From assembly GCA_963831645.1 (NCBI GenBank), contig CAWHQZ010000028.1, positions 627,035 to 691,034 of the forward strand: a stretch of 64,000 bases of DNA, read 5' to 3'. The notes below the pieces were generated by a model. It saw only the letters and a program-made list of their open reading frames with translations. It was not told the origin of the DNA and ran no database searches. Shown piece after piece: positions 1,264 to 19,410 of the stretch; position 1 is the stretch's first letter, and every line of letters starts with the position of its first letter. Both the position numbers and the translations under genes were made by a program. This DNA is from an uncultured Alphaproteobacteria bacterium. GTDB lineage: Bacteria > Pseudomonadota > Alphaproteobacteria > Rhizobiales > Aestuariivirgaceae.

Positions 1264-2643
1264 TCAGGCATCGACTTCGCCCCTCGCCAGCTCCAGCCCT
1301 TGCCTTGCCCCGGCGTCGACACGCTTCGTCAACCTGTAAGCGAGCAGCCGGGCGATCCGCTGGTCGCCGAGCGGCCGGCGCTCCACGCGTTGGTGAATGT
1401 CGAGATCGGGCTTGCTGTTGCCCTCGATGATGCAGGCGCCATCGGCGAGCATGGCGACATCCCAGCCCACCACTACGAGTTGCGGAAATGCGGCATGGGT
1501 GCGGCAGGCGAGCTCCACGACCTCTTTCCAGAGCGGCAGGCGCCGGCCGGCAAAGCGCGCCCCGCTCACCGGGTGGATCTCGTTCCAGCCGACGCCGGGC
1601 CTGATCCCCATATCCGAGGCCGGTCCGATTTCGCCGGTGTTCAGATCGACGGCGGTCGCCAGTCCGCCCTGGTGGAAATTATCGACCACGCAGTTGCTGC
1701 CGATCGCCATGCGGAAGGCGGCGTTGGTCGCCTCGAAGCCGTCCTCTTCATTGCGGCAGGTGAGGATGCGCGCCGTCGCCAACGCGCCGTTGCTGATGTC
1801 GGCGAGCTCCGGGTGATTTTCGAGCCGGGGCTGGACGACGATATCGCCGGTCAGCGACTGCCGCTCGAGCCGCGCCAGCAACGCCTCTCCGCCGAGCGTC
1901 TCGCCTGAGCTGTTGCGGTACCTGTCCTCGCCGAGATAGTCCCAGCGCTCACAGTGGTGGCCGCCGTTGCCCCGACGCGGCTTGACGAAGAGGTCCGAGG
2001 CGGGAAGCGCTGGGACCGTGCCATCCGTTGTCGCGGGTTTGCCGCCGGACAGGTGGAAATGCACGGGCACGGCGCGGATTCCGAGCCTGGCGCAGTCCCT
2101 TGCGAATGCGGCCTTGTCGGCCAGCAGATCCGCTCTGTCCGTCGGCTGCAGCAGGGCATAGGCCGAGCCGACCGTTTCATGGGCCGTGAGATAGAGACCG
2201 GCATTGCGCCGCCGGCCGTCGCGATAGAGCTCGAACATGTAGTACCAGAAAGGGGCGATCGACGGGCCGGCCGCGAGCTGGAGCTGCTCGGAGAGTTGCC
2301 GGCCGATCGGCTTGCCGCTCTCGCGGCGGATTGCCGAGCCGTTTCGCCGCGTGAAGAGCGCGGCCGCGACGATCAGCGCCACCGGCCACGCGACCGTCGC
2401 GATCAGGCCTCTGAGGGGGCCGGCCGGCAACGCCCAGTAGCTCCTGCCGTGGACCCAATGCAGGTAATCGGCAGGAGACTGGGTGGCCGATGGCGCGAGC
2501 GGCCGAAACACATACCGCACGGCCATCGGCAGCCCGGCAACATCGTAGGCGAACTGTTCGGCTCTGCTGAGGAAGCGGCTCCACAATCGGCCGGTGACGC
2601 GCGCCATCCGGATTTTTAGCTGCGAAGGAACCGTGGCAGGCAT
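1264..2643 (-). CDS. alpha-L-glutamate ligase-like ATP-grasp protein; family recognition by eye only
   Basis: Intact 459-aa ORF with ATP-grasp-like motifs (NSKPDLDIH..., GxGG-rich segments), adjacent to glycosyltransferase genes. Confidence 0.6.
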   Translation of the reverse strand: MPATVPSQLKIRMARVTGRLWSRFLSRAEQFAYDVAGLPMAVRYVFRPLAPSATQSPADYLHWVHGRSYWALPAGPLRGLIATVAWPVALIVAAALFTRRNGSAIRRESGKPIGRQLSEQLQLAAGPSIAPFWYYMFELYRDGRRRNAGLYLTAHETVGSAYALLQPTDRADLLADKAAFARDCARLGIRAVPVHFHLSGGKPATTDGTVPALPASDLFVKPRRGNGGHHCERWDYLGEDRYRNSSGETLGGEALLARLERQSLTGDIVVQPRLENHPELADISNGALATARILTCRNEEDGFEATNAAFRMAIGSNCVVDNFHQGGLATAVDLNTGEIGPASDMGIRPGVGWNEIHPVSGARFAGRRLPLWKEVVELACRTHAAFPQLVVVGWDVAMLADGACIIEGNSKPDLDIHQRVERRPLGDQRIARLLAYRLTKRVDAGARQGLELARGEVDA

Positions 2644-2671
2644 GGGTTTGTCGTCACCCCGAAGTATTGTG

Positions 2672-3820
2672 TCACCGCCAGGAGCGGCTTCTGCCCTCTT
2701 GACCGCGCAGCAGGCCGCGCACCCGGCTCACCGAACGCTGCAGCTCTTCCGTCTGCGGCGATCCACGGGCAGGCTGTGGATCATCGATCCAGCTCGCCCG
2801 GCCGGTTTCGATCAGCGCCCGATGAACGATGCGCAGGTCGCGCGACCATCGCGGCGGGCCAAACCGCATGGCGAGCCTGAAGGCGGTGCTGGCGAGGTCG
2901 CCGCCCCGCCAGTGTGGCGGCGGCAGGCTCTCGCCGCTCGCCGGGCCGGGAAGCTCGGCGCGCATCGCGCGCTCCTTCTCCTCGAAGTCGAAGAGCAGCA
3001 CTGGTTTGCCCGTGGCGGCGGCTTCCGACATCATTGAGATGCTATCGGCAGTCACGATGATGCGCTGGGCCAAAGCAAGATAGGCGAAGTACGGATTTTC
3101 ATCCGGCTCGGCACGGAAGCGATGGCCGTGATGGGGAACGGAAATGGCGGCGAACAAGGCTTCCGCAACGGCGGGCGGAGTACGCGGGCTCGTCGAGACG
3201 AGCAGGCTGCCGCCCTCGTCTTGCGCGAGACGGCTCGCTTGCCGCCCGAGGCGGTCGCCCGCAGCAGGCGAAAATACATAAGGACCGCTGCTGCCGCCGA
3301 CGAGAACCGCCGTCAGCGGTCGCGGCAGGTCGGCAAGCCGCGACGACCAGGCCGTGGCCGCCCGGGCGAGGTTCTGCGGGTCCACATCGTGAAGCGGCAG
3401 CGAGTTGTGCAGCACGTTGGCGCGATCGGGCAGGCGATATTGCGGCGTCGTGATGACCAGATCGAAACGATCGAGCGTCCAGGGCGTGCCGACATAGACG
3501 AGCTTGGCCGAAGGGTTGCCGTGGCGGCGGATCCAGAATGCAACGGCTTCCGTCGGTCTTCCGGCTGCGATGACGAGGTCCGGATAGGGCGGGGCGATCA
3601 GGCGCCTGGAAGCCGCATCGACTGCCGCGAGCGATGGCGCGGCGGCCAGCCGCACCAGGGCTTCATGCCGCCGGAACGCGAGCCGCTTGACCTCGCAGGG
3701 CCAGCCCAATGCGTCCGCCAGCGTCAGCAGCTGGCGATTGTCGCCGGCGTGCGGGCTTGCTAGAAATCCACACGAGGGGCGCCCCGGCTTCGGGCGCGGT
3801 GAAACCAGGAGCACTCGCAT
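2672..3820 (-). CDS. ELM1/GtrOC1 (DUF1022) family putative glycosyltransferase
   Basis: 382-aa ORF starting MRVLLVSPRPKPGRPSCGF...LADALGWPCEVKRL, matching bacterial ELM1-like proteins. A paralog sits at 6144-7259. Confidence 0.6.
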   Translation of the reverse strand: MRVLLVSPRPKPGRPSCGFLASPHAGDNRQLLTLADALGWPCEVKRLAFRRHEALVRLAAAPSLAAVDAASRRLIAPPYPDLVIAAGRPTEAVAFWIRRHGNPSAKLVYVGTPWTLDRFDLVITTPQYRLPDRANVLHNSLPLHDVDPQNLARAATAWSSRLADLPRPLTAVLVGGSSGPYVFSPAAGDRLGRQASRLAQDEGGSLLVSTSPRTPPAVAEALFAAISVPHHGHRFRAEPDENPYFAYLALAQRIIVTADSISMMSEAAATGKPVLLFDFEEKERAMRAELPGPASGESLPPPHWRGGDLASTAFRLAMRFGPPRWSRDLRIVHRALIETGRASWIDDPQPARGSPQTEELQRSVSRVRGLLRGQEGRSRSWR

Positions 3821-3958
3821 TCACATGGGCCATGAGTCTCGGCCGCGGTACGACCCGGGCTCTCCTGATCTTGAAATCGAGTCCGCTGCTGGATGTCATG
3901 ATGACGTCACACGGCGCACGTTACCCGACGCCTTCATCCAACGGTAGTTCCAAAAGCC

Positions 3959-4876
3959 ATGACCGACGCTGAAACACCCCGGCCCCACGTATTCATCCAG
4001 TCGAATGCCAAGCAGTCCATCGGGGCGGTCGTTTCCGCCTACTCGATGCAACGGAATTCCCGCCATGCCGGCGAGTTCGACGTCACGATCATGCGTCAGG
4101 AAGACTATCCTTTTTTCAGGGCGCGCGATGGTCAATCCTACCGCCGCCATGGTGTCAGCCGCGTATGGCAGGAAAACGATCTGCAGTCCTTCTCGCTGAC
4201 CCGCTTCCTGCCGCCCCAGCTCATGGGCTATCGGGGCCGGGCGCTCGTCGTCGATCCGGATGTCTTCGCCGTCGGTGACGTGTGGGAGTTGTTGACACGT
4301 GACATGCAGGGCAAGGCCATTTTGTGCCGGCGGTCGAAGTTCAAGAACGGCGCCTTCGCCACCAGCGTGATGTTGCTCGACTGCACCAGGCTGAAGCACT
4401 GGAATGTGGAGCAGGGCTTCGCGGAGCTTTTCGATGGCCGGCGTGACTACCACAACTGGATTTCGCTCCTCATGGAGCCGCGTGAGAGCATTGGATTTTT
4501 TGAAGACGAGTGGAACGATTTCGACCGGCTGACGCCGGCCACCAGGATGCTGCACAACACGCGCCGCCGCACCCAGCCGTGGAAAACCGGCCTGCGGGTC
4601 GACTATACGCCGACCGAGTTCGTGCCGGTGATCGGCTGGATCATGCGCGCCCGCCGGGTCCTGTTCGGTGCGCACGGGCTGCTCGGCAGCTATGCGCGCC
4701 ATCCTGACCGCAACCAGGAGGCCTTCTTCTTCGGCCTGCTGCGGGAATGCGTCGATGCGGGTCTTCTGGACGCCGCGACGCTGAAGGAGGCGATGGCACG
4801 GAACCATATCCGTCATGACGCTCTCGATGTCATGGCTCAGGCTCCGCGGCCGCCGCAGCTTAAGGCCGCGCACTGA
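3959..4876 (+). CDS. hypothetical protein, possible nucleotide-sugar transferase (DPD motif)
   Basis: 305-aa ORF with a clean ATG at 3959, divergent from the ELM1-like gene. No family recognised beyond ALVVDPDVF. Confidence 0.45.
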   Translation: MTDAETPRPHVFIQSNAKQSIGAVVSAYSMQRNSRHAGEFDVTIMRQEDYPFFRARDGQSYRRHGVSRVWQENDLQSFSLTRFLPPQLMGYRGRALVVDPDVFAVGDVWELLTRDMQGKAILCRRSKFKNGAFATSVMLLDCTRLKHWNVEQGFAELFDGRRDYHNWISLLMEPRESIGFFEDEWNDFDRLTPATRMLHNTRRRTQPWKTGLRVDYTPTEFVPVIGWIMRARRVLFGAHGLLGSYARHPDRNQEAFFFGLLRECVDAGLLDAATLKEAMARNHIRHDALDVMAQAPRPPQLKAAH

Positions 4877-4901
4877 GGACCGGCGCGCCGGCGAATCCTG
4901 G

Positions 4902-6162
4902 ATGACCCGGGAAGAAGCTGCAGAAATCGCCGGCGCCGGTGACCGGCAGCTGCGGGTCGCGCTGTTCACCGGCAACTACAACTATATCAAGGACGGAGTG
5001 GCCCTGACCCTCAACCGGCTGGTACGGTTCCTCGAAGGAGAATCACGTCGCCGTTCTCGTCTTTGCGCCCACCGGTCCCAAGCCTGCGTTCGATGCCGCC
5101 GGAGACCTCGTATCGGTTCCCTCGTTAGCCATTCCGCGCCGTCCCGAATATCGCTTTGCGCTCGGTCTCCCGGCTCGCGCGCGCCGACGCCTTGCGGAGT
5201 TCAGGCCCAATCTTTTTCATATCGCCGTGCCCGACCTGCTCGGCTATCGGGCTCTCAAGCTTGCCGGCGAATGGAATGTTCCCGCCGTCGCCTCGTTTCA
5301 CACGCGCTACGATCAGTATCTGAAGTTCTACGGTCTCGGCCGCCTCGAGCCCCTCGGCAAGAGATACCTGCGCCATTTCTACGGAAAATGCCGGCAGGTG
5401 TATCCGCCGACCGAGTCCATGGCCGCCATCATCCAGGAGGAGGGCTACTCCGAGAGGGTCCGCATCTGGTCGCGCGGCGTGGATGTCGAGTTGTTCGATC
5501 CCGGCCGGCGCAGCCGGCAGTGGCGCCGGTCGCTCGGCATTGCCGATGAAGAAGTAGTGGTGAATTTCACCAGCCGCCTCGTCAAGGAAAAGAACACCGG
5601 CCTTCTGACCCGTATCTTCGCCGCCCTGCAACGGGAGGGCTCGACGTTCCGGGCCATGATCGTCGGCGACGGGCCGGAAGAAGGGAGCATGAAGGCGGCA
5701 TTGCCCGATGCGGTCTTCACCGGTTTCCTCCACGGCGAAGCACTCGCGCGCGCGTATGCGTCCTCGGATGTTTTTCTGTTTCCCAGCGAAAGCGAGACGT
5801 TCGGCAACGTGACGCTCGAGGCCATGGCGAGCGGCCTGCCGGCGGTGTGTGCCGATGCCAGCGGCAGCCGCTCACTGGTGATCGAGGGGGTCACGGGATT
5901 CCTTGTCGGAGCCGGGAACGAAGCGGGTTTCCCGGCGCGGCTTGGCGCTCTCGTCGGCAGCAGTGACCTGCGCGCACACATGGGCAAGGAGGCGCGGGCA
6001 CGCGCTTTGACGTTCGCATGGGACGATACGCTCGCGAACCTGCTGGCGAGCTACAGGGATGTCGTCGCGGCGGGGGACACCGTGGTGCATGGCGGAACGG
6101 CTGGCGGGTTGAAGCCGGCGCCGCTCGTTTGCGGAGCGGAGAAATGGCCGGCGTCGCAGTGA
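4902..6162 (+). CDS. glycosyltransferase family 4 (GT-B, EX7E-type); apparent +1 frame break near 5037-5041
   Basis: N-terminal part LRVALFTGNYNYIKDGVALTLNRLVRFLEGE is in frame 3 and the remainder NHVAVLVFAPTGP...FLFPSESETFGNVTLEAMASGLP is in frame 1. Deleting one base in GGAGAA restores LEGNHVAVLVFAP. Confidence 0.75.
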
Positions 6163-7259
6163 AGCAGAGGGGGAAGACGGCGCCCCGCCGGCAAACTCGC
6201 CCGCCGAAAGTATGGCTTCTTTCGCAGGGTCGCCGCGGTGATCTCGAGCAGATGCTGGCGCTCGCGCAGGCGCTGTCGTGGCCGCTCGAGATCAAGACGC
6301 TCGTCTTCCGGCCTCCGGCAATCCCGGCACTGGCGCCCGTGCTGCTCAGGGCCGATGCCAGCGATAGAATCGCGCCGCCGTGGCCCGATGCCATCGTCTG
6401 CGCCGAGGCAATGGCCAGTGTGATCGCCCGGCGCCTGCGCCGCCTCGCCGGAGGAAGCACGAAGCTGATCTGCCTCGGCCGGCCGGCCGGCGATCCGGCT
6501 GCCTTCGACCTGGTGCTTACGACGGCACAGTATCATCTGCCGCCGCGGCCCAATGTGGTCGAACTGTCGCTGCCGCTCACCGCTCTACCGGCGCCCGACA
6601 GTCCGGCCGGCGGCAAGCTCGCCGCGCGGTTGACGGGCGACCGCCCGCACATCGCGGTCGTGATCGGCGGCGCGAGCTCTCCCGAAATCCTCGATCGAGC
6701 CGTCGCCCGGGAGCTTGCGGGCGCCCTTTGCCGGTACGCGGTCCAGAACGGCGGCACTCTGCATGTGGTTACGAGCCCGAGGACGAGCCGCAAGGTGTCC
6801 GATGAGCTTCTCAGGCGCTTTCCCCCGCCGCACCGCGTTCATGTCTATGACCGCGCGGCGAACAATCCCTACCGGCGGATCCTCGCCCTCGCCGATGAGA
6901 TCATCGTGACCAATGACAGCGTCTCCATGGTCGCCGATGCGCTGGCGACGCAGAAGCCCGTTTATGTCTATGCGCTCCCGCGCTCCCGTAACCTCGCTTT
7001 TCGCGCATCAGAATGGTGTCGCCGCAACGTGCTGGAGACTGCCCCCGTGCCGCTGTTGCTGCGGCCCGTTGCATGGCTGTTCGACAAGGGGTTCGTCGAG
7101 ACGAGCGCCGACCGGTCGCGCCTTTTCCGCCGGCTTGCGAGCGAGGGCCGCATCGGCTGGTTCGGCGGCGCCCCGCCGCTGGTCCGCAGGGACGCGGTGG
7201 CTCACGACTTGGAAACCGCCGTCGCCCGGGTGAAAGATCTGTTTCCGAAGGCCGGTTGA
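6144..7259 (+). CDS. ELM1/GtrOC1 (DUF1022) family putative glycosyltransferase, paralog 2
   Basis: Contains KVWLLSQGRRGDLEQMLALAQALSWPLEIK and IAVVIGGASSPEI, paralogous to 2672-3820. The start is ambiguous (ATG at 6144 overlaps the GT4 stop). Confidence 0.6.
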   Translation: MAGVAVKQRGKTAPRRQTRPPKVWLLSQGRRGDLEQMLALAQALSWPLEIKTLVFRPPAIPALAPVLLRADASDRIAPPWPDAIVCAEAMASVIARRLRRLAGGSTKLICLGRPAGDPAAFDLVLTTAQYHLPPRPNVVELSLPLTALPAPDSPAGGKLAARLTGDRPHIAVVIGGASSPEILDRAVARELAGALCRYAVQNGGTLHVVTSPRTSRKVSDELLRRFPPPHRVHVYDRAANNPYRRILALADEIIVTNDSVSMVADALATQKPVYVYALPRSRNLAFRASEWCRRNVLETAPVPLLLRPVAWLFDKGFVETSADRSRLFRRLASEGRIGWFGGAPPLVRRDAVAHDLETAVARVKDLFPKAG

Positions 7260-7327
7260 GTTTCCGGAAACCCTGCCCTTGGGCAACGTCCTCCGGGCGC
7301 CTATCGGTGGGGTAGGCGGCGGGCAAA

Positions 7328-10746: not shown

Positions 10747-10857
10747 TACGACGGCGCAATATCCTCGCCCCGCGGTGTCTTTATGCAACGAGGGTTCAAT
10801 TTCGAACTCCGCATCCTTATATTCGGGCTCCAGTGCTCACGTTCCAATGAGGTTGTC

Positions 10858-11390: not shown

Positions 11391-11843
11391 CTAGCGGGCC
11401 GCCTCGTCGGCGGTCGGAATCCTACCCTGCGGAGTGTATTTGTCGACCGCCTCGGGCAGCGTCCGCGACAGGCGGGCGAGCAACTCACTTCGCGACAGCC
11501 CCGTCTGCTCGGCGAGCTTGTCGAGGATATCCGAGCCGATGGCGTTTGCCAGTTGATCGGGCGCGATCGGCTGATTCGGCCCCTTGCTGATCCACGACTC
11601 CGCCGCTTCGCCCTGGCCGTTCCTCCTGAACTGTTCCACGAGGTCGCCGAGCCCGCCGGAGAGCACGCTGCCGGCCGAGGCGCCGCCCAGCGCTCCACCC
11701 GATCCGCCCGGTTCGGCGCCTCCGCCCGCTCCCTTGCTCTGGTTCGCTCGGCCCAGCATTTCGGCGATTTTCTCGCGGTTCTGGTAACCGGCGACTGCAA
11801 GCAGTCCCAAAAGCGCCACCATGGACGGCATTCCTCGGGCCAT
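11391..11843 (-). CDS. YidB/DUF937-family protein
   Basis: Starts MARGMPSMVALLGLLAVAGYQNREKIAEML and ends in a Gly-rich region, typical of DUF937. Confidence 0.6.
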   Translation of the reverse strand: MARGMPSMVALLGLLAVAGYQNREKIAEMLGRANQSKGAGGGAEPGGSGGALGGASAGSVLSGGLGDLVEQFRRNGQGEAAESWISKGPNQPIAPDQLANAIGSDILDKLAEQTGLSRSELLARLSRTLPEAVDKYTPQGRIPTADEAAR

Positions 11844-12022
11844 TTTCACTCCTCCTTCGCTGACGAAACTTCCACTCGAAAAGACCGGAACAGTCGATAC
11901 TCGGATTTGTTCCGCGCGGGCGTATGGTGTATGATTCGATTTTGAACGAAGTGTGTCATGCGTGGTCGTTTGTGTGGGGCAGGTTCGGCTGCTGAGAGCC
12001 GACAATCGGAGGGACTATCGAC

Positions 12023-12277
12023 ATGGGCATCATCTGGACGATCATCATCGGTCTGATAGCCGGAGTGATCGCAAAATTTCTAGTGCCGGGCACCAGCAAC
12101 GAGCCGTCCGGCTTCATCATGACGACGATCCTGGGCGTCGTGGGAGCGGTCGTAGCGAGCTACCTCGGCCAGGCGCTCGGATGGTATTCGGCAGGAGAGG
12201 GAGCCGGCCTGATCGGCGCCGTGGTCGGGGCGATAATCGTCCTCCTGGTCTGGGGCGCAATCGCCAGACGCGCGTAA
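12023..12277 (+). CDS. GlsB/YeaQ/YmgE-family stress-response membrane protein
   Basis: 84 aa: MGIIWTIIIGLIAGVIAKFLVPG...GAVVGAIIVLLVWGAI, a two-TM transglycosylase-associated fold. Confidence 0.8.
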   Translation: MGIIWTIIIGLIAGVIAKFLVPGTSNEPSGFIMTTILGVVGAVVASYLGQALGWYSAGEGAGLIGAVVGAIIVLLVWGAIARRA

Positions 12278-12315
12278 GCGCCGAATTCTGAGAACTATCT
12301 GTCTCGGGTGACAGC

Positions 12316-12346
12316 CCGCCCGCGAAAGCTCGCGGCGGGCTGAAAT
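12316..12346. terminator. GC-rich hairpin between convergent genes (possible bidirectional terminator)
   Basis: AGCCCGCCCGCG-AAAG-CTCGCGGCGGGCT lies right after the stop of the GlsB-family gene and before the stop of the minus-strand IalB-like gene. No strong U-tract. Confidence 0.4.
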
Positions 12347-12717
12347 CTACTTCGTCAGCTCGACGGTGCGGGCGAGGGCGCCGGCGAAGCCCTTCAGCGA
12401 GATCGTGAAGGTGACCGGCTTGTTGTTGTCTGCCGCCGTCGCCATGATCTTGAGCACAGTGCCTTCGCGCAACAGGGCCAGCGTCTTCTGGTCGATGGCG
12501 AGCGAGACGAGACAGCCGACCGGCAGGCAGGTGCGAAACGGCAGGGGAGCGGCGGGCTCGCCATCGTCGATCTGCAGGATGGCGCCTGGCAAACGCGGAG
12601 GCGACGACGGCGTTTCGACATCGACAAGCAACCAACGGCAATACGAGCGTCATCGTGGGCGCACCTGGCGCCGGAACCGCTGAATAAGTCTGAAAGAAAG
12701 AAACCGAGGAAACGCAA
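12347..12717 (-). CDS. invasion-associated locus B (IalB)-like protein; apparent frame break near 12630
   Basis: C-terminal part CLPVGCLVSL...VTFTISLKGFAGALARTVEL resembles the IalB family. The N-terminal part continues in another frame (12394-12717). Confidence 0.4.
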
Positions 12718-12732
12718 GGGCTAAAAAGCTGG

Positions 12733-12927
12733 TCAAAACTTATGGTTTATGCCAGCCTGCTTCATTATCCCATTCGCTGTATGGCGCGAGAGTATCTTGT
12801 GGTCCACCGGAAAGGTGCGCTTGGAGATTGGTGAGTACCAATAGTCGTGGTCGCCCTTTGCGGGGCGCAAATAGTAGCATTCGTTGTCGGACAGGACTTT
12901 CTTTACGTCACGAGCGTAATCGCTCAT
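12733..12927 (-). CDS. hicA: HicA-family toxin (YcfA-like mRNA interferase)
   Basis: 64 aa containing KGDHDYWYSPISKRTFPVDHK...GIMKQAGI. Overlaps the upstream hicB by 4 nt. Confidence 0.65.
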   Translation of the reverse strand: MSDYARDVKKVLSDNECYYLRPAKGDHDYWYSPISKRTFPVDHKILSRHTANGIMKQAGINHKF

Positions 12928-13163
12928 GCAGCTTCAAGACGTATCCGTTCTTGAGTACGAAACTCCAACGGTATCTCAGCCGGGATGCGAGAAACGACCT
13001 CGTGCTTGTTGAGCCTGAGCAAGTCAGGAATCATCCCGAAGACTTTTTGGCGCAGCGCCTCTAGGGTCGATGCTTCAGTGACTAACCCAGGCACGTTTGA
13101 GTCGCTCACGTACCAGACGTTTGCCTCTGAATCGAATGCCGCCGTGACCTTGAGTACCAGCAT
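12924..13163 (-). CDS. hicB: HicB-family antitoxin (DUF1902 N-terminal domain)
   Basis: 79 aa containing AFDSEANVWYVSDSNVPGLVTEASTLEALRQKV, a HicB-like motif, upstream of hicA. Confidence 0.65.
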   Translation of the reverse strand: MLVLKVTAAFDSEANVWYVSDSNVPGLVTEASTLEALRQKVFGMIPDLLRLNKHEVVSRIPAEIPLEFRTQERIRLEAA

Positions 13164-13230
13164 TCCGAGCTCCTACCCCGCTCGATCGAATAAGTGGGTC
13201 ATTAGGAGTCAGATGTAAAGCGATTTGGTG

Positions 13231-13257
13231 GATAGTTGCTTACCGGCAGCAACTATC
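13231..13257. promoter_or_regulatory. 9-bp inverted repeat GATAGTTGC-N9-GCAACTATC upstream of hicB; candidate operator
   Basis: Perfect palindrome seen in the sequence about 70 bp upstream of the hicB start on the minus strand. Confidence 0.35.
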
Positions 13258-13458
13258 TGGTTTTATTGCCCTTTCTACATCGCAAAAAAGCCTTCGCCGC
13301 CGGGCATCTTCCTCGGCGGGGTCGCCACCTGGCGGTCTGTCGTCAGTCCCTCCTATGGCTGGTGGTGGAATCAGAGCTTCTAACGGTAACACCCCGTCCA
13401 CTCCGCCTGCATAGGATCTTGACCCAGCCATCCTCTCTTCACGAGCGTTCGCGGCCGG

Positions 13459-14641
13459 TTACTCCCGGTCCGTCCGCGTCCAGCTCGAGCCTCGGCCTCG
13501 CAGAAGCCCGGCATAGATCCCGAGCTTGCCGAGCACATACGACGGAAGTCCCGCGAAATCCCGCGCGCTCGAGACTTCACCGCCGAAGCGGCGCCAGGCG
13601 AGGCCGATCGCCAGCGCCAGCAGGACGAGCGCGCCGACGGGGATGACGATGCTCGCTGAGCCCGCGCCGGCGGCCGCGAGAACCAGAAGCAGCGCCGTCC
13701 AGGCGAGAAGCGCTCCCGCGTAAAGCCCGATGGGCGGCGCCAGGATGTCGAAGGCCAGCGCCAGCAGCCCGGCATCCCGTCGCGCCAGCGCGGTGGCGAG
13801 CAATCCCGGCGCCTGGCTGGCCAGGACCTGCAGAGATCCCTGCTCCCAGCGGCGGTGCTGGCCCGAGGCGGCAGCCGCAGCGAGCGGAAAGGCGCTCGTG
13901 ACCACCGCTTCGGGCAGGTAGATGGCGCCTTTACCCGCGGCAGCGAGCTCGACCCCGAGTTTCAGGTCCTCGGTCAGATGCCCGCTCGCCAGATCGGCCG
14001 AGACGGCGAGCGGCCAGGGAATCGCCATGCCGGTTCCCATGAGATGACAGGGTGCGCCCAAAGCACGCAGCCCGAGAGCGCGTACATGGTTCCGCATCAG
14101 GAAGGCAAATGCCGCGAGACGGTGACCGGCGCCCGCTCCATCGGGGGGCAACATGCGATAGCGGGCCTGAACCGGCCGGCCGAACTCATGCGCGGCCCGC
14201 GCCAGCCGGCCGACAGCTTCGCGCCCCAGCCGGCAATCGGCATCCAGAACGATGAGGATTTCCGGCGGGTTCTGCCCGAGATGGCGCGCGCCGAAGGCGA
14301 GAGCGTAGCCTTTGCCGCGCCGTTCCGGCTCGTGCCGCTCCACGACTTCCGCACCCTCCAGGCAGAGCCACGGCCGCGGTGTCGTCGCTGCAGTTGTCCG
14401 CCACGACCAGAAGGCGGTCGCCCGGCAGAAGCTGCTCACGTGCATCGCGAAGGGTCGCCGCCACGCGCAGGCCCTCGTCATGGGCAGGCACGAGAATGCA
14501 GACGGCGGGACGCTCCATGCTTGCCTCGGCCGCAGGCTCCGGCCGGCGCCCGAGAAGAGCCGCGCCCACTTCCACCAGCAGCACGATGGCGGGAATCGCC
14601 AGAGCCAGGCTCACCACCCACGCCGCGCCGTCGAGCAGCAC
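13459..14641 (-). CDS. glycosyltransferase family 2 (GT-A) with N-terminal TM segment; frame break near 14385-14400
   Basis: N-terminal ORF (14186-14641) has VCILVPAHDEG...LLVVADNCSDDTAAVA. The rest (13459-14481) continues AEVVERHEPERRGKGYALAF...ILIVLDADC in another frame. Confidence 0.7.
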
Positions 14642-14647
14642 GAAGCA

Positions 14648-15880
14648 TCACGGGGCCGCCTCGAGAAAAAGGCGCTCGAGCGCCGCCGCCGCCATCGCGG
14701 CATTGTGGCGCCGGAGCACCTGCTCCCTCCCGGCCTCACCCATTCGGGCGAGGACGGCGGGATCAGCCTCGAGAGCCTCCTTCATGGCGGCCGCGAGCGC
14801 CGGCGCGTCGCCCGCCGGCGCCAGCCAGCCGGTCTGGCGCGGAACGACGAGCTCTGGAATGCCGGCGACGAAAGTGGCGATGACGGGCCGCGCCAGCGCC
14901 ATCGCTTCCATCAGGACCACGGGCAAACCCTCCGCGAAGCTCGCCAGCACCAGGGCCCGGCAGCTCTCGATCTCTTGCCGGACGGCTTCGCCCGAAAGCC
15001 ACCCGGTGATCCGGACGCAGTCGCCGAGGCCCCGCGCCGCGATCTCCTCCTCGAGCTCGGCACGCAGCGGTCCATCGCCCACCAGGCGCAGCTCGAACCG
15101 GGTCCCGCTTGCGCGCAAGGCGGCCGCCGCCTCGATGAGGAGCGAGGTCCCTTTCTGCGCCGAAAGCCGGGCGACGCTCAGAAGGCGCGGAGCCGCCGGC
15201 ACGGGCGAGGCAACTGCCTTCACGTACGCCGCATCGAGGCCGCAGCGCACGATCCGCACTTTCGGCCAGTCCTGTCTGGCGGCCCAGCGCAGGAGCTGGC
15301 TGCGCCCGAAGGAGCTGACGGCGCAGACGAACCTGGCGCGGGCGATCTTCTGGCCGAGCGCGATCGCTTCCGGCCTGTCGAATTCGTCGGGTCCGTGGAC
15401 GGTGAAGCTCCAGGGAATTCCCGTCAGCTCGCCGGCGAGCATCGCGACGGTCGCAGAATTCGTGCCGAAGTGCGCATGCAGGTGATCCGCGCGCTCCAGC
15501 CTCAGCCGGCGGGCGAGCACCGCCGCCTCGCCCCAGTAGAACACATGCCACACGAGGCCGCGCTCGGAGCGCCAGCCGGTCTTCAGCGCAACGGAGAGCG
15601 AACGGAAGAGGCCGGCCGGAAAGGCGATTGCCGCCGCGGCCATGTCGGCGAGCAATCGCCGTGCCGGCTCGGCCAGCAGCGTCCTGGTTCGGCCCGCTTC
15701 CTCGATGTCCTCTTCATCGACGAGGTCGGGCCCCGCGGGGCGCAGGGAATAGCGCAGGACCGTGAGCCCGTGGGCCTCGAGCGCCCGGATCTCGCGGCGG
15801 ATGAAGCTGTGGCTCGCTCCCGGATAACGGTTGACGAGATAGGCCACTCTCACGCGGGCCTCGTCCAGATGTCCCGCCAC
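14648..15880 (-). CDS. glycosyltransferase family 4 (WcaL/colanic-acid-type)
   Basis: Intact 410-aa ORF: RVAYLVNRYPGASHSFIRREI ... EGLPVVLMEAMALARPVIAT. Confidence 0.75.
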   Translation of the reverse strand: MAGHLDEARVRVAYLVNRYPGASHSFIRREIRALEAHGLTVLRYSLRPAGPDLVDEEDIEEAGRTRTLLAEPARRLLADMAAAAIAFPAGLFRSLSVALKTGWRSERGLVWHVFYWGEAAVLARRLRLERADHLHAHFGTNSATVAMLAGELTGIPWSFTVHGPDEFDRPEAIALGQKIARARFVCAVSSFGRSQLLRWAARQDWPKVRIVRCGLDAAYVKAVASPVPAAPRLLSVARLSAQKGTSLLIEAAAALRASGTRFELRLVGDGPLRAELEEEIAARGLGDCVRITGWLSGEAVRQEIESCRALVLASFAEGLPVVLMEAMALARPVIATFVAGIPELVVPRQTGWLAPAGDAPALAAAMKEALEADPAVLARMGEAGREQVLRRHNAAMAAAALERLFLEAAP

Positions 15881-16300
15881 CGGCCCGCGGCGATATGGCG
15901 TTCGCGCCCGCCGAGCTCACGGGCGAGGGACACCAGGCGCCCCAGGCTCCAGCCGAGATTGGCGAGAAGGGGTCCGGGCGGACCGTAGAGAAGCCGGAAA
16001 TACCGGGCGCGCGAGCGATAGAAGCTGGAGGGACGGTGGCGGCGGGGCTGCCCCGGTTCCGGAACGGCCGGGCTGCCGCCTTGCAGGTGCACGATTCGCG
16101 CCTCCGGCACATAGCGGATATCGAAGCCGGCGGCCCGTACGCGATGACAGTGTTCGCTGTCCTCGTAGTACATGAAGAATCCCTCATCGAGCAGGCCGGC
16201 GGGCTCGAGCGCCTCCCGCCGGACGAGCACGCAGGCATAGCTGATCCAGTCCGGCCTCGTGCCCGCGTCGGCGGCGTGAATGGGCGCCTCGTAGCGCTCG
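15850..16300 (-). pseudogene. GT2 glycosyltransferase C-terminal fragment; N-terminal DxD half absent
   Basis: Only the C-terminal region is present (YACVLVRREALEPAGLLDEGFFMYYEDSEHCHRVRAAGFDIRYVP). Upstream space is occupied by the phosphomannomutase gene, and no alternative frame encodes the GT-A N-terminal half. Confidence 0.45.
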
Positions 16301-16423
16301 AGCAGCCGCGTAATCGGCCCGGTGCGCGCTGCATCGACGAGCTCGCCGAGCGGTGTGTGGCGGCGAAAGCAGCTGCATCCTGGGCAAAGACGGCCGTCAT
16401 CTGCCTCACCGGCCGCAACGCAC

Positions 16424-17957
16424 CTACTGAGCCAGTTTCTGATTGTACTCGCCGACCTCCGGAAACGCTGCGAGCAGCTTCTCGATGGCATGGAAGATGC
16501 GGCGCATCGCCGCCTCCGAGGACGGGCTTTCACAGACGACGACAAGCTCGGGTTTGTTGGACGAGGCTCTCACTAACCCCCAGCCGCCATCTTCGAGAGT
16601 GACGCGCACGCCATTGATGGTGAGGAGACCGGCGATGCTCTGACCGGCGAAGCTCTTGCCCTGGCGCGTGAGATCCGCGAGTTGCTGCGTCACAGTTTCA
16701 ACCACCCGGTACTTCGAAGGGTCCGGACAGTGGGGCGACATCGTCGGCGTGCACCATGTTGTCGGCAGGTCGCCATAAAGCTCCGCCATGGAGCGCCCAG
16801 CCGCCCCGTCGAGTAGATCGCAGACAGTGATCGCCGTGGCGAGTCCGTCGTCGTAACCCCGGCCGAGCGGCTCCCTGAAGAAGAAGTGCCCGGATTTTTC
16901 GAAACCAGCGATCGCTGCCGTCTCGGCTGTTCGCCGCTTGATGTAGGAATGGCCGGTCTTCCAGTATTCGGTCGTCGCGCCATTCGCCAGGAGAACCGGA
17001 TCAGTCTGAAACAGCGCCGTCGATTTGACGTCAGCCACGAAGCGAGCATTCGGATATCGCGCTGATATGGCCCGCGCCAGCAGCACGCCCATCTTGTCGG
17101 CGAAAATCGGCATCCCTTTATTGTCAACGACGCCGCAGCGGTCGCCGTCGCCGTCGAAGGCGAGCCCGATATCGGCGCGGGCTTCGGTGACGGCTCGCGA
17201 GACCGCCGCGAGCATCGCGAGGTCCTCCGGATTGGGGTTGTAGTTGGGAAAGCTCCAGTCGAGATCGCAGTGAAGCGGCACGACCTCGCAGCCGATGGCT
17301 TCCAGTGCCAGGGGCGCAAACGCTCCGGCAGTGCCGTTGCCGCACGCGACGACGGCTTTGAGCCGGCTTTTCAACTTAGGCCGTGACGTCAGGTCTGAGA
17401 GATAGCGCTGCCGCATGTCATTCACCCGGACGAGACTGCCGCCGCCGCGGTTCTTGCCCTCACCATTGAGGACGATCGCCTTCAATGCAGTCATATCGTC
17501 GGGCTCGAGCGTAAACGGACGGTCCAGGCCCATCTTGACGCCCGTCCAACCATTGGGATTGTGCGATGCCGTGACCATCGCGACTGCGGGCACGTCCAGT
17601 GCAAACTGGGCGAAATAGGCCGTTGGGGAAAGTGCCAGACCGATGTCATAGACGGTGCAGCCCGCCGCCACCAAGCCGCTCGTCAGTGCATCTTTGACCG
17701 CGGCCGAGTAGCTGCGGTAGTCGTGGCCGGTGACGATGTCAGGCCTTATCCCCCGATCTTGCAGAAGGGTGCCGAGACCCAAGGCCCAGTGCGTGGACAC
17801 CCGGGAGATTGATTTCGCTTTCATAGAGCCAGCGGGCATCATACTCGCGGAAACCGGTGGGCTTTATGAGCGGCAGAGCCTCCCCGGCCAGGGCGCCGGG
17901 CTCTAAATCGTCGCGGGGTCTGAGCAGTCTTTCAGACTGTCGCTCTTTCATCTTCAC
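16424..17957 (-). CDS. phosphomannomutase/phosphoglucomutase (alpha-D-phosphohexomutase); frame break near 17800
   Basis: Active-site TASHNPNGWTGVKM is present. The N-terminal segment KPTGFREYDARW...GVHALGLG is in a different frame (ORF 17739-17957) from the body (16424-17842). Confidence 0.75.
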
Positions 17958-19410
17958 TCAAGTCAAATGGCGACCGGCTTGCTTCAGTCGCCCGTAGCTG
18001 TCTTCAAGCCGAACAATGTCGTCCTCACCCAAATAGCTGCCTGATTGAACCTCGATGAGCTGAAGCGGTTCGCTGCCCGGATTCTCCAGCCGGTGGACCG
18101 CGCCTTTCGGAATATAAGTGCTCTCGTTCTCATTCAGGTCAAATTGCCTTTCTGCGCACGTGACACGTGCCGTGCCGTGGACGACGACCCAGTGTTCGGC
18201 TCGGTGATGATGATACTGTAAGGACAATTTTGCCCCTGGCTTCACGATAAGTCGTTTGACCTGATAGTTATTGCCTTGGCCGATCGCTTCATAGCTTCCC
18301 CACGGTCGTGCGACGCGCCGGTGGCTGGCAACCTCTGGTAGGTCGGCCGCCGCCAGCTCGTTCACCACGCCCTTGAGGTCATCGAGCGTCGAGCGGTCTG
18401 CGACCAAGAGCGCATCCGCAGTATCGACAATGATGAGATTGCGTAGCCCCAATCCGACGGTCAATCGCTCGGGACTATGGACAAACACGTCTTCGCAGGA
18501 TCTCATTTCTGCTTGCCCTACGCTCCGGTTCCGCCTGGCATCCTCCGGTAGTACTTTGGCGAGCTCTGCCCAGCTCCCCACATCGCTCCACTCGGCAGTC
18601 AAGATCGACAACGGCTACCCGGTCGTCCTTCTCGAGGACCGCGTGATCAAAGGAAACCGGCTCACAGGCGAGAAAAGCTTCAGGCTGCAGGCAGACATGA
18701 CCGTATTCTCCGGTGGCTCCGGATACTGCTCTCCGGCAGGCTGCCAACACTGCCGGGACGTGGCGGGAGAGCGCAGCAATGATCACGTCGACCCGCCCTA
18801 TCACCACTCCCGAATTCCACCGGTAGCCGTCACGAACATATTCGTGCGCCGTTCGTTCGTCGGGTTTTTCAACGAAACGGTCGACCTTCCGTGCCGGGCG
18901 CGTATCAATCGGCTGACCGGGTCGAATGTAGCCGAACGACGTGGCCGCGTGAGACGGCATGACCCCGAGGATCGTGATCCAGCCGGCGGCGGCAACGTGA
19001 ACGGCTTCCGTGAGTGTCGCGTGAAATGCTTCCGCTGACGCGATTTCATGGTCCGCGGGCAAACACACAATAGTTGCATCGGGTTCCGCTTCCGCCAGAT
19101 ACAGGGCTGCACAGGCGATGGCTGGGGCAGTATTCCGGGGTCCGGGTTCCAGAATCAGTATGTTTCGCTTGGCGGCGTTTTGCGTCACTTCTTCGATGAG
19201 AAACCGGTAGTCGTGGTGGCTGACACACACCGTCCCATCCGCCAGCGAATAGTTCGCAGCACGATCGAAGGTGCGCTCAAACAGCGACTTGCCGTCTCTT
19301 ACGACAGCGAACTGCTTCGGGAAGTCTCGCCGGCTGAGCGGCCACAGCCGTGTGCCCGATCCCCCGCAAAGTATGACCGGATGCACTCTGAGCGCGGTCT
19401 TCATGCTCAA
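17958..19410 (-). CDS. manC: mannose-1-phosphate guanylyltransferase / mannose-6-phosphate isomerase (bifunctional, cupin C-terminus); frame break near 18590-18610
   Basis: N-terminal ORF (18475-19410) has VILCGGSGTRLWPLSR. C-terminal ORF (17958-18611) has EWSDVGSWAEL...cupin with GAVHRLENPG. The two overlap in different frames. Confidence 0.75.

What the first reader, a model, noticed from the sequence alone, without database searches (positions are those of the whole stretch)
1264..19410. Surface-polysaccharide locus combining two ELM1/GtrOC1-like paralogs, an alpha-L-glutamate-ligase-like ATP-grasp enzyme, GT4/GT2 enzymes and GDP-mannose supply genes
Genes 1264-7259 (ATP-grasp, ELM1-like, unknown putative transferase, GT4, ELM1-like) and 13459-19410 (GT2, GT4, GT2 remnant, PMM, ManC) are all polysaccharide-related. 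They are separated by unrelated small genes and two toxin-antitoxin pairs. ELM1/DUF1022 proteins are poorly characterised putative glycosyltransferases. An ATP-grasp ligase in such a cluster suggests amino-acid (glutamate-like) decoration of a mannose-containing polymer. About 16 kb further on lie a PEP-CTERM-type prsT and its ATPase, hinting that the polymer belongs to an exosortase-dependent surface system. No exosortase (xrt) or Wzx/Wzy/Wza export gene is present in the window.
Basis: partly seen in the sequence, partly recalled or inferred. Interest (0 to 1): 0.55.

Follow-up and report, generated by a model that had tools for sequence, protein, structure and literature searches.

The report
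Two separate sugar-chain gene modules
The flagged stretch is not one polysaccharide locus but two unrelated sugar-chain gene modules: a five-gene cassette conserved in nearly all related soil and water bacteria examined, built from barely studied enzyme families, and an ordinary, patchwork exopolysaccharide gene set.

Summary

**Module A (1264-7259).** This is a divergent five-gene cassette. It encodes an ATPgrasp_ST ligase with a hydrophobic N-terminal segment, two ELM1-type GT-B proteins, a GT4, and the "unknown" gene. The unknown gene lies on the + strand and is a Pfam-less GT8-like GT-A glycosyltransferase. The same arrangement occurs in 35 of 41 related species genomes (Aestuariivirga-like Hyphomicrobiales). 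It evolves under purifying selection.

**In relatives.** The cassette is usually followed by a sulfotransferase and a HepA/MsbA-like ABC exporter. Both are missing here.

**Module B (13459-19410).** It holds a GT2, a GT4, a GT2 remnant, PMM and ManC. It starts beyond the synteny break with the closest relative, has mixed base composition, and was found beside module A in none of 59 related loci. These loci cover only the genes next to the cassette.

**Broken genes.** GT4a, GT2 and ManC are each split by one extra base. About eight genes are split across the window, so assembly error is the likeliest cause.

- Glutamate specificity is unsupported: TIGR02291 scores 30 bits against a cut-off of 314.
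- The PEP-CTERM link is weak. PrsT and its ATPase lie beyond a 14-kb prophage-like block.

**Best reading.** Module A assembles a conserved, membrane-associated glycoconjugate carrying an ATP-grasp-installed amide decoration. No experiment supports this yet.

The parts
1264..2643 (-). Module A: ATPgrasp_ST (PF14397) carboxylate-amine ligase, 459 aa. It has one hydrophobic segment at residues 79-97 and a conserved N-terminal region (IAPFWYYMFELY motif) ahead of the ATP-grasp domain.
   Evidence: Pfam 121.5 bits against 31.4. TIGR02291 scores only 30.4 against 314.2. Hydrophobic segment. Invariant K221, D395, E407 and N409 among 17 homologues. dN/dS 0.165 against L061.
2672..3820 (-). Module A: ELM1a, a PF06258 GT-B fold putative glycosyltransferase, 382 aa.
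3821..3958 (.). 138-bp divergent intergenic region between ELM1a(-) and the GT8-like gene(+). It is presumed to hold the two promoters (inference only).
   Evidence: ORF coordinates. The divergent arrangement is conserved in 35 of 41 loci. The promoter was not tested.
3959..4876 (+). Module A: GT8-like GT-A glycosyltransferase, 305 aa, from a family with no Pfam model. Its DPD motif lies at residues 99-101. It is the most conserved protein of the cassette.
   Evidence: GC3 0.80 on + against 0.65 on -. No Pfam or NCBIfam hit. 5233 homologues and 986 clusters at 50% identity. 16 of 51 diverse members weakly hit PF01501. AF2 pLDDT 93.9. Foldseek matches GlyE, LARGE1, LgtC, XXYLT1 and glycogenin. 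69-92% identity across most related loci.
4902..6162 (+). Module A: GT4a retaining glycosyltransferase, interrupted by one extra base near 5035-5038. The N-terminal part is in the frame of ATG 4902; the rest is in the frame of 5008-6162.
   Evidence: Pfam Glycos_transf_1 and Glyco_transf_4. tblastn with intact orthologues gives two HSPs in different frames. Deleting one base gives a 419-aa ORF. L061 has its own +1 at a different site. dN/dS is 0.02-0.18 on every piece. Nearest named families are GlcNAc-PG synthase, MshA, BshA and PimA, all far below cut-off.
6018..7259 (+). Module A: ELM1b, the second PF06258 GT-B paralogue. The ORF from ATG 6018 overlaps the end of GT4a, so the true start may be near 6141.
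   Evidence: Pfam 143 bits, domain from residue 74. 37% identical to ELM1a. Conserved position in 35 of 41 loci.
12289..13458 (.). Boundary zone. Synteny with the closest relative ends at 12288. The zone holds an N-truncated IalB fragment (12347-12631, -) and a HicA/DUF1902 toxin-antitoxin pair (12733-13163, -), and its GC is low (0.59).
   Evidence: blastn and tblastn against L061. Pfam. Composition.
13459..14641 (-). Module B: membrane GT2 (Glyco_trans_2_3, M. xanthus EpsU-like), about 393 aa, with one +1 frameshift near 14340. It has an N-terminal TM segment and 2-3 C-terminal TM segments.
   Evidence: Pfam and NCBIfam. The N-terminal GT2 motif lies in the other frame. Restored to 393 aa by a single-base deletion. 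TM segments.
14648..15880 (-). Module B: GT4b (EpsE-like), 410 aa, intact.
   Evidence: Pfam. NCBIfam EPS_EpsE 231 bits against a cut-off of 400, full-length alignment.
15850..16545 (-). Module B: 5'-truncated GT2 remnant. Only the C-terminal half of the domain is present.
   Evidence: Pfam hits below cut-off, profile positions 162-217 of 230. The upstream space is occupied by the intact PMM gene.
16424..17842 (-). Module B: phosphomannomutase/phosphoglucomutase, 472 aa, intact.
   Evidence: All four PGM_PMM domains. The best NCBIfam hit, PgmG, scores 257 against 600, so substrate specificity is not resolved.
17958..19410 (-). Module B: ManC (GDP-mannose pyrophosphorylase / mannose-6-P isomerase) split by one extra base just before the GWSDVGSW motif. 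Its GC3 is lower than that of its neighbours.
   Evidence: NTP_transferase and MannoseP_isomer domains lie in two frames. Sequence read. Restored to 483 aa by a single-base deletion. GC3 0.63-0.64.

Best explanation
The finding merges two unrelated glycan modules.

**Module A (1264-7259)** is a self-contained, vertically conserved cassette of the Aestuariivirga-like Hyphomicrobiales. It encodes four predicted glycosyltransferases with no predicted transmembrane segments (GT8-like GT-A, GT4, two ELM1-type GT-B) and a membrane-associated ATPgrasp_ST ligase.

Proposed mechanism:
- The four transferases build a short oligosaccharide on a membrane-bound acceptor at the inner face of the cytoplasmic membrane (inferred).
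- The ATP-grasp enzyme activates a carboxylate, most plausibly that of a sugar acid, as an acyl phosphate. It couples this to an amine, an amino acid or amino alcohol of unknown identity, to give an amide decoration. This is inferred from ATP-grasp chemistry and the Cj1438C precedent.
- In most relatives the product would be further sulfated and moved by an adjacent HepA/MsbA-like ABC exporter. In this genome and its closest relative those genes are not adjacent.

The tight conservation across species suggests a housekeeping envelope glycoconjugate, such as LPS-core-like material or a glycolipid, rather than a strain-variable EPS.

**Module B (13459-19410)** is an ordinary EPS-type gene set with GDP-mannose supply genes, in a non-syntenic, compositionally mixed segment.

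**The frameshifts** in GT4a, GT2 and ManC are most likely assembly errors.
For: **Shown**
- Family assignments.
- GT8-like fold: pLDDT 93.9, matches to GlyE, LgtC and LARGE1. Weak PF01501 hits in 16 of 51 relatives.
- ELM1a has a GT-B fold.
- The canonical five-gene order occurs in 35 of 41 species genomes.
- A sulfotransferase follows in 29 loci and an ABC exporter in about 25. The exporter's best match is the HepA family, then CydD, LssB and MsbA. Both are absent from the window.
- dN/dS is 0.02-0.26 for all cassette genes, including every piece of GT4a.
- Synteny with L061 ends at 12288. No module B homologue lies near the cassette in 59 loci.
- GC is 0.71 at 14-16 kb and 0.59-0.62 at 17-20 kb. 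ManC GC3 is 0.63.
- Single-base deletions restore GT4a, GT2 and ManC.
- Further split genes occur elsewhere: CHAD, PrsT, the portal gene, an ABC ATPase, and possibly an SDR seen only as a fragment.
- The closest relative has a different frameshift in the same GT4 gene. Non-triplet indels lie inside conserved coding sequence in both assemblies.
- The ATP-grasp protein has one hydrophobic segment. The four GTs have none.

**Precedent**
- The TupA-like ATP-grasp Cj1438C amidates the C6 carboxylate of GlcA in a capsule (PMC11800379).
- Distant GT8-like relatives sit with UDP-sugar dehydrogenase and Asn-synthase-type amidotransferases.
Against: - No experiment exists on any member of ATPgrasp_ST, on bacterial ELM1 proteins or on this GT8-like family. 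Glycosyltransferase and ligase activities are inferred from fold and family only.
- No uronic-acid (UDP-sugar dehydrogenase) gene was seen in the cassette or in the window ORFs scanned.
- No acceptor, priming enzyme or exporter lies in the window.
- UDP-GlcNAc 2-epimerases are among the best structural matches to ELM1a, so a non-transferase role is not excluded.
- The frameshift in GT4a, together with an independent one in the closest relative, could reflect real inactivation in this sub-lineage, which also lacks the adjacent sulfotransferase and exporter.
- The loci of relatives reach only about 10 kb, so a more distant link between modules A and B in other genomes was not tested.
Confidence: 0.5

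Rival explanations
1. Genes 1264-19410 form one surface-polysaccharide locus making a mannose-containing polymer. The polymer is decorated with a glutamate-like amino acid and belongs to an exosortase/PEP-CTERM system.
For: All genes are glycan-related. PMM and ManC are within 17 kb. PrsT fragments and a TIGR03015-like ATPase are in the window. GT4 enzymes give weak hits to the PEP-CTERM stp2/stp3 families.
Against: - Synteny with the closest relative stops at 12288, before module B.
- No module B homologue lies within the about 10 kb fetched around the ATP-grasp gene in any of 59 loci.
- Six kb of unrelated genes and a toxin-antitoxin pair separate the modules.
- TIGR02291 scores 30 bits against 314.
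- PrsT and the ATPase lie behind a 14-kb phage structural block. Both score below their NCBIfam cut-offs.
- No exosortase or polytopic candidate is present.
- Relatives pair the cassette with an ABC exporter, not with xrt.
Confidence: 0.07
2. Module A is specifically an LPS/LOS core-oligosaccharide assembly cassette. Cytoplasmic GT4, GT8-type and ELM1 transferases extend lipid A-core. The ATP-grasp enzyme amidates a Kdo or uronic-acid carboxylate. MsbA and Lpt export the product. This is a more specific version of the best explanation.
For: - ELM1 (GtrOC1, 14, 19, 22), GT4 and GT8 enzymes co-occur in the A. baumannii outer-core locus (PMC4172580).
- E. coli outer-core assembly uses GT4 WaaG and GT8 enzymes (established knowledge).
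- There is no Wzx/Wzy, priming transferase or exporter in the cassette.
- Conservation across species and low dN/dS fit a conserved core structure.
- The exporter next to the cassette in relatives is related to MsbA, among other families.
Against: - No kdtA, heptosyltransferase, waaL or lpx genes were seen in the two neighbourhoods with precomputed Pfam annotation. ORF clustering across all fetched loci showed no further widely conserved neighbour family.
- The exporter matches the HepA family better than MsbA, and both fall far below cut-off.
- Several sulfotransferases and a Nucleotid_trans gene in relatives suggest a larger, separate glycan.
- The GT4a family resemblances are to small-molecule and lipid acceptors.
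Confidence: 0.2
3. Module A is a decaying relic in this lineage. GT4a is truly frameshifted, the sulfotransferase and exporter have been lost, and no product is made.
For: - There is a +1 frameshift in GT4a here and an independent +1 in the same gene in the closest relative.
- Both genomes lack the adjacent sulfotransferase and ABC exporter that 25-29 other loci carry.
Against: - dN/dS is 0.02-0.18 on all GT4a pieces, the same as for intact neighbours.
- There are no stop codons or larger deletions.
- About eight genes of unrelated function are split by frame changes in 64 kb, including phage, transport and TPR genes. Compensating non-triplet indels lie in conserved coding sequence. This pattern is typical of indel-prone assemblies.
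Confidence: 0.1
4. The ATP-grasp enzyme does not decorate a glycan. It ligates amino acids onto a peptide, protein or soluble metabolite, and the neighbouring transferases glycosylate that molecule. The product would be a glycosylated small molecule or a modified protein rather than an envelope polymer.
For: - Many ATP-grasp families are peptide or metabolite ligases (PMC4431377).
- There is a weak hit to the YheC/D family.
- Structural neighbours of ELM1a include natural-product GT1 enzymes such as CalG and YojK.
- GT4a resembles MshA and BshA, which glycosylate small molecules.
Against: - No precursor peptide, NRPS or other metabolite-pathway gene is conserved next to the cassette.
- The ligase has a hydrophobic, membrane-type segment.
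- Sulfotransferases plus an ABC_membrane exporter in relatives fit an exported glycoconjugate.
- The Pfam family was defined by its association with sugar transfer (family name).
Confidence: 0.1

Closest known systems
Campylobacter jejuni HS:2 capsule enzyme Cj1438 (C-terminal TupA-like ATP-grasp amidoligase)
   Same: An ATP-grasp ligase sits in a glycan-biosynthesis gene set alongside glycosyltransferases. Its demonstrated chemistry is ATP-dependent amide formation on the C6 carboxylate of glucuronic acid (PMC11800379). I propose the same reaction type for the module A ligase.
   Different: - The Pfam family differs: ATPgrasp_ST PF14397 here, with no TupA-like hit at E<=0.01.
- It is a stand-alone protein with a hydrophobic N-terminal region, not a fusion to a GT2.
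- No KpsMT/Kdo-linker capsule genes are present.
- The amine and carboxylate substrates are unknown, and there are no biochemical data.
Acinetobacter baumannii LOS outer-core (OC) locus with ELM1-family GtrOC1/14/19/22
   Same: PF06258 proteins are treated as putative GT-B glycosyltransferases and co-occur with GT4 and GT8 enzymes in a locus with no Wzx/Wzy (PMC4172580).
   Different: - The organism is a gammaproteobacterium.
- That locus has no ATP-grasp ligase.
- It is variable between strains, whereas module A is nearly invariant in gene order across species.
- GtrOC1 activity is itself unproven.
'Sugar-transfer associated ATP-grasp' systems predicted by comparative genomics (Pfam PF14397; Iyer et al. 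2009, Mol Biosyst, cited in PMC4431377; the paper itself could not be read)
   Same: It is the same ATP-grasp family, above the gathering score. The neighbourhood shows the same kind of association with glycosyltransferases and, in relatives, sulfotransferases.
   Different: I found no paper describing this fixed cassette of two ELM1 genes, a Pfam-less GT8-like gene and a GT4 gene, or its clade-wide conservation. That the original prediction stayed generic is my recollection and could not be checked.
Myxococcus xanthus Wzx/Wzy-dependent EPS glycosyltransferases EpsE and EpsU (NCBIfam NF041876, NF041865). The attribution to M. xanthus rests on my own knowledge plus a paper hit.
   Same: They are the best named matches for module B's GT4b (231 bits, full length) and membrane GT2 (113 bits).
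   Different: Both scores are far below the equivalog cut-offs of 400 and 700. No Wzx, Wzy, PCP or OPX genes lie in the window. Module B also contains a truncated GT2 and mixed-composition PMM/ManC genes.

Membership tests
ATPgrasp_ST (PF14397) | Pfam score above the gathering threshold | tested here: met
   121.5 bits against 31.4, profile positions 15-267 of 278.
ATPgrasp_ST (PF14397) | Conserved gene-neighbourhood association with sugar-transfer enzymes | tested here: met
   ELM1, GT8-like and GT4 genes are adjacent in 35 of 41 loci. A sulfotransferase follows in 29 loci.
ATPgrasp_ST (PF14397) | ATP-dependent carboxylate-amine ligase activity | not testable with these tools
   The only evidence is invariant Lys, Asp, Glu and Asn positions (K221, D395, E407, N409) in 17 homologues. 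These are consistent with an active ATP-grasp site (inference).
alpha-L-glutamate ligase-like protein (TIGR02291, RimK-related) | NCBIfam score at or above the curated cut-off | tested here: not met
   30.4 bits against 314.2.
TupA-like ATP-grasp amidoligase (Cj1438C type) | Sequence membership in the TupA-like family | tested here: not met
   Only PF14397 and a sub-threshold PF14398 hit were reported at E<=0.01. The PDB sequence search found nothing significant.
ELM1 / PF06258 (GtrOC1-like) | Pfam score above the gathering threshold (both paralogues) | tested here: met
   207.2 and 143.4 bits against 27.
ELM1 / PF06258 (GtrOC1-like) | GT-B two-Rossmann fold | tested here: met
ELM1 / PF06258 (GtrOC1-like) | Glycosyltransferase activity | not testable with these tools
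   I found no characterised bacterial member.
Glycosyltransferase family 8 (PF01501) | Pfam hit for the window protein | tested here: not met
   No Pfam or NCBIfam hit for 3959-4876. 16 of 51 diverse relatives give weak hits, best E 1.4e-6.
Glycosyltransferase family 8 (PF01501) | GT-A fold most similar to GT8 structures, and a DxD motif | tested here: met
   Foldseek probability 1.0 to GlyE, LgtC, LARGE1, XXYLT1 and glycogenin. D99-P100-D101 is at least 90% conserved.
[quoted passage not shown] | Both Pfam domains above threshold; intact reading frame | tested here: inconclusive
   The domains are present in GT4a, but one extra base splits the gene. GT4b is intact.
PEP-CTERM / exosortase EPS system | Exosortase (XrtA/EpsH) gene | tested here: not met
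   None was found among the ORFs scanned. The only polytopic ORFs are the Na/H exchanger, ABC permeases and part of a transglutaminase-like protein. The rest of the genome was not available.
PEP-CTERM / exosortase EPS system | PrsT and the associated ATPase at equivalog score | tested here: inconclusive
   PrsT lies in three fragments scoring 67.9, 91.5 and 92.4 bits against 312.2. The ATPase TIGR03015 scores 285 against 324.5.
PEP-CTERM / exosortase EPS system | Physical or conserved linkage to the glycosyltransferase modules | tested here: not met
   It is separated from ManC by a 14-kb phage structural module. No PrsT or xrt was seen in the two cassette neighbourhoods with precomputed annotation.
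GDP-mannose supply (ManB/ManC) | PMM domains and a bifunctional GMP/PMI | tested here: inconclusive
   Four PGM_PMM domains are present, but the best equivalog, PgmG, scores 257 against 600. The ManC domains are split by a +1 frameshift, and one deletion restores a 483-aa ORF.
ABC-transporter-dependent glycan export | ABC exporter adjacent to the assembly genes | tested here: not met
   It is present in about 25 related loci but absent from the window and from the closest relative's locus.

The most novel reading that the evidence does not exclude
Module A would be the genetic signature of an undescribed, clade-wide envelope glycoconjugate of Aestuariivirga-like Hyphomicrobiales. The product would be a short lipid-anchored oligosaccharide made by three orphan enzyme families: bacterial ELM1 GT-B proteins, a Pfam-less GT8-like family with more than 5000 members, and ATPgrasp_ST. 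An ATP-grasp-installed amino-acid or amino-alcohol amide would be a conserved feature, and most species would add sulfate. If true, it would give the first functional assignment for bacterial ELM1 proteins and for ATPgrasp_ST.
Probability: 0.3. Interest if true: 0.55.

Novelty: new member of a known kind. Interest (0 to 1): 0.35.

Why it matters
Three families in the cassette have no characterised bacterial member: bacterial ELM1/PF06258, ATPgrasp_ST/PF14397, and a GT8-like family missing from Pfam.

The cassette keeps a fixed gene order across dozens of species. It is also present in a cultured type strain, Aestuariivirga litoralis KCTC 52945 (locus L028). That makes it a practical entry point for assigning their functions.

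For genome annotation there are three practical lessons:
- Nearby sugar genes should not be merged into one locus without checking synteny.
- The 'alpha-L-glutamate ligase-like' label is not justified here.
- Split genes in this assembly should not be called pseudogenes.

Otherwise this is a predicted glycan-biosynthesis cluster of a familiar general type.

Tried and rejected
- **Exact-protein look-ups.** Look-ups of the window ATP-grasp protein and its 100% identical database entry found no indexed contig. The source genome could not be read beyond the window.
- **PDB sequence searches.** Searches with the GT8-like protein, the ATP-grasp profile and ELM1a gave nothing significant. Structure prediction was needed instead.
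- **Literature.** PF14397/ATPgrasp_ST returned no papers. PF06258 returned only the A. baumannii OC-locus papers. The Iyer et al. 2009 paper is not held.
- **Longer GT8-like relatives.** A Pfam scan of ten of them, looking for informative fusions, found nothing.
- **Prophage ends.** A search for att-type direct repeats around the prophage-like block found only chance-level matches. I could not show that the phage split module B from PrsT.
- **Distant ATP-grasp loci (41-49% identity).** Only L058 kept an adjacent ELM1 among the called ORFs; tblastn also shows one in L057.
- **Strand of the unknown gene.** I considered the - strand ORF 3896-4975 and rejected it on GC3 and on conservation of the + strand protein.
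- **SqdD/SqdX-type sulfolipid synthesis.** I considered this idea for module A but did not test it.

Full report
**1. What is in the sequence**

The window is GC-rich (0.56-0.71), so many spurious ORFs exist. I used third-position GC content (GC3) to pick the coding frames and profile searches to name the genes.

On the minus strand lie two genes:
- An ATPgrasp_ST protein at 1264-2643 (PF14397, 121.5 bits against a cut-off of 31.4).
- An ELM1/PF06258 protein at 2672-3820 (207 bits).

Diverging from them on the plus strand are three genes:
- A 305-aa ORF at 3959-4876 with no Pfam or NCBIfam hit.
- A GT4 gene.
- A second ELM1 gene at 6018-7259 (143 bits).

The overlapping minus-strand ORF 3896-4975 is not the coding one. 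Its GC3 is 0.65, against 0.80 for the plus-strand ORF. Only the plus-strand protein is conserved elsewhere.

Downstream come unrelated genes:
- A Na+/H+ exchanger, a CYTH-CHAD protein and DUF1428.
- A YidB-like protein, a Transgly_assoc protein and an IalB fragment.
- A HicA/DUF1902 toxin-antitoxin pair at 12733-13163.

After these, on the minus strand, lie a membrane GT2, a GT4, a partial GT2, a PGM/PMM and ManC. The VapC(PIN) pair at 501-1220 lies upstream of the ATP-grasp gene, not between the clusters.

**2. The 'unknown' gene is a GT8-like glycosyltransferase**

- It has 5233 database homologues, all unnamed, and 986 clusters at 50% identity.
- Of 51 diverse members, 16 give weak Glyco_transf_8 hits.
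- An AlphaFold model built on that alignment is confident: pLDDT 93.9, pTM 0.91.
- Its best structural matches are GT8 enzymes: GlyE, LgtC, the LARGE1 xylosyltransferase domain, XXYLT1 and glycogenin.
- A D-P-D motif at residues 99-101 is nearly invariant.

**3. The ELM1 proteins are GT-B fold proteins**

- The ELM1a model has pLDDT 91.
- It is close to no particular solved family.
- The only literature on bacterial PF06258 found is the A. baumannii outer-core locus work. There these proteins are predicted, but not shown, to be glycosyltransferases.

**4. Module A is a conserved cassette**

ATP-grasp homologues are numerous in Aestuariivirga and other Hyphomicrobiales. A scan of one genome per species returned 59 loci.
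- In 35 of the 41 loci with enough upstream sequence, the order ELM1b-GT4-GT8-like <> ELM1a-ATP-grasp is identical to the window.
- The GT8-like protein is the most conserved, at 69-92% identity in most loci.
- Against the closest relative (L002/L061, 88% ATP-grasp identity), dN/dS is 0.09-0.26 for all cassette genes.
- In relatives a Sulfotransfer_1 gene follows the ATP-grasp gene in 29 loci. An ABC_membrane+ABC_tran exporter follows in about 25.
- The exporter's best NCBIfam matches are the HepA family, CydD, LssB and MsbA, all below cut-off.
- Neither gene is in the window or in the closest relative's locus.
- Two distant loci (L057, L058) still keep an ELM1 gene next to the ATP-grasp gene.

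**5. Module B is separate**

- Nucleotide and protein synteny with L061 runs through the cassette and on to 12288, then stops. L061 has no counterpart of the IalB fragment, the HicA pair, GT2, GT4b, the GT2 remnant, PMM or ManC.
- None of the 59 loci has a homologue of those genes within the about 10 kb fetched around the ATP-grasp gene. This reach covers only the immediate neighbours of the cassette.
- Composition is mixed: GC 0.71 at 14-16 kb and 0.59-0.62 at 17-20 kb. ManC GC3 is 0.63, against 0.76-0.85 for its neighbours.
- The GT2 'remnant' is truly 5'-truncated. Only the C-terminal half of the domain is present, and the upstream space is filled by the intact PMM gene.
- GT4b and the GT2 resemble the EpsE and EpsU models. 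I attribute these to Myxococcus xanthus from my own knowledge and a paper hit. The scores are well below the equivalog cut-offs.

**6. The frameshifts**

- GT4a: the N-terminus (MTREE...RVALFTGNYNY) lies in one frame and the rest in another. Relative to L061 the window has one extra base near 5036. Deleting it gives a 419-aa ORF.
- L061 carries its own extra base at a different site in the same gene.
- All GT4a pieces show dN/dS of 0.02-0.18.
- ManC and the GT2 are each restored by a single-base deletion, to 483 and 393 aa.
- Other genes in the window are split the same way: CHAD, PrsT in three pieces, the phage portal gene, and an ABC ATPase. An SDR appears only as a fragment.
- Non-triplet indels, some compensating, lie inside conserved coding sequence of both assemblies.
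- I conclude that indel errors in the assemblies are the most likely cause. I estimate this at about 0.8. Real recent inactivation cannot be excluded without reads.

**7. The PEP-CTERM hint**

- PrsT-like TPR fragments (35612-38059) and a TIGR03015-type ATPase (38062-38952; 285 bits against 324.5) are present.
- They are separated from ManC by a prophage-like structural module at about 21.1-35.1 kb, with portal, capsid, tail, amidase and tail-fibre genes. The capsid protein is 62% identical to that of Bradyrhizobium phage ppBjS10J-1.
- No att repeats were found.
- No exosortase, Wzx, Wzy or similar polytopic protein is encoded in the window.
- Any PEP-CTERM link would concern module B at most, and it remains unproven.

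**8. How module A most likely works**

*Shown:* four predicted glycosyltransferases with no hydrophobic segments, plus one ATP-grasp ligase with one hydrophobic segment, always together. There is no priming transferase, flippase or polymerase.

*Inferred:*
- A short glycan is assembled stepwise on a membrane acceptor at the cytoplasmic face.
- ATP-grasp chemistry (acyl-phosphate activation of a carboxylate, then attack by an amine) adds an amide-linked substituent.
- The precedent is Cj1438C, which amidates the GlcA C6 carboxylate in the C. jejuni capsule (PMC11800379).
- Distant GT8-like relatives lie next to UDP-sugar dehydrogenase and Asn-synthase-type amidotransferases. That fits a sugar-acid context.
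- In most relatives, sulfation and ABC export would follow.

*Not supported:* the 'glutamate' specificity. The TIGR02291 hit is 30 bits against a cut-off of 314.

Strict conservation across species is unusual for strain-variable EPS or O-antigen loci. It points to a conserved envelope glycoconjugate, such as LPS-core-like material or a glycolipid.

**9. Verdict**

- Module A is a new, undescribed member of the known class of glycan-assembly clusters with an ATP-grasp decorating enzyme.
- Its value lies in offering a tractable handle on three uncharacterised families.
- Module B is ordinary.
- Interest: 0.35.

Noticed in passing
window 21100-35100: A prophage-like, podovirus-type structural module. 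It holds a portal gene split into two frames (22041-22823 and 22891-24120), a major capsid gene (27380-28351; 62% aa identity to Bradyrhizobium phage ppBjS10J-1), a tail protein, an amidase and tail fibres (32545-35062). No integrase, att repeats or early genes were identified.
   Followed up: partly
window 4902-6162, 9085-10633, 13459-14641, 17958-19410, 22041-24120, 35612-38059, 60984-62880, 62783-63112: About eight genes of unrelated function are split by frame changes. The three tested (GT4a, GT2, ManC) are each restored by deleting one base. The SDR at 62783-63112 appears only as a fragment. This suggests an indel-prone, probably long-read, assembly rather than pseudogenes.
   Followed up: partly
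window 9085-10633 and L061 15157-16711: The CHAD domain of the CYTH-CHAD gene continues in a second frame in both the window and its closest relative. The window also has a +1/-1 indel pair 72 nt apart (10156, 10229) relative to L061. It is unclear whether this is a shared real frameshift or a systematic error.
   Followed up: partly
window 12733-13163 (-) and 501-1220 (+): A HicA toxin / DUF1902 (HicB-like) pair sits just beyond the synteny break with the closest relative. A VapC(PIN) toxin, with a small upstream ORF, is inserted between the DAO gene fragment and the ATP-grasp gene; it is absent at that spot in L061.
   Followed up: partly
window 3959-4876 and proteins P0121-P0390: The GT8-like protein belongs to a large family (5233 hits; 986 clusters at 50% identity) with no Pfam or NCBIfam model. 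This looks like a gap in current domain libraries.
   Followed up: yes
L062 1-8884; L064 1-14792: Distant GT8-like relatives (about 30% identity) lie in polysaccharide loci with GT4 genes, Asn-synthase-type amidotransferases and, in L064, methyltransferases and a UDP-glucose/GDP-mannose dehydrogenase. This suggests uronic-acid amidation by a different enzyme class.
   Followed up: no
L001/L025 11400-21300 (Aestuariivirga chromosome): Downstream of the cassette, relatives carry up to four sulfotransferase-family genes, a HepA/MsbA-like ABC exporter, a Nucleotid_trans (PF03407) gene, an NDP-sugar epimerase/dehydratase, kinase-like proteins and two proteins with no family. This would be a larger sulfated-glycan locus that is absent from the window.
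   Followed up: partly
window 39139-47200: tRNA-Phe (39139-39214) is followed by a DNA methyltransferase-like gene (40164-41351, -), an SPFH/Band-7 protein (41569-43404) and a 774-aa transglutaminase-like protein (43749-46073). This may be an integrated island or a defence region.
   Followed up: no
window 49029-50633: A 534-aa protein combines an adenylate/guanylate cyclase catalytic domain with a periplasmic solute-binding-protein domain.
   Followed up: no
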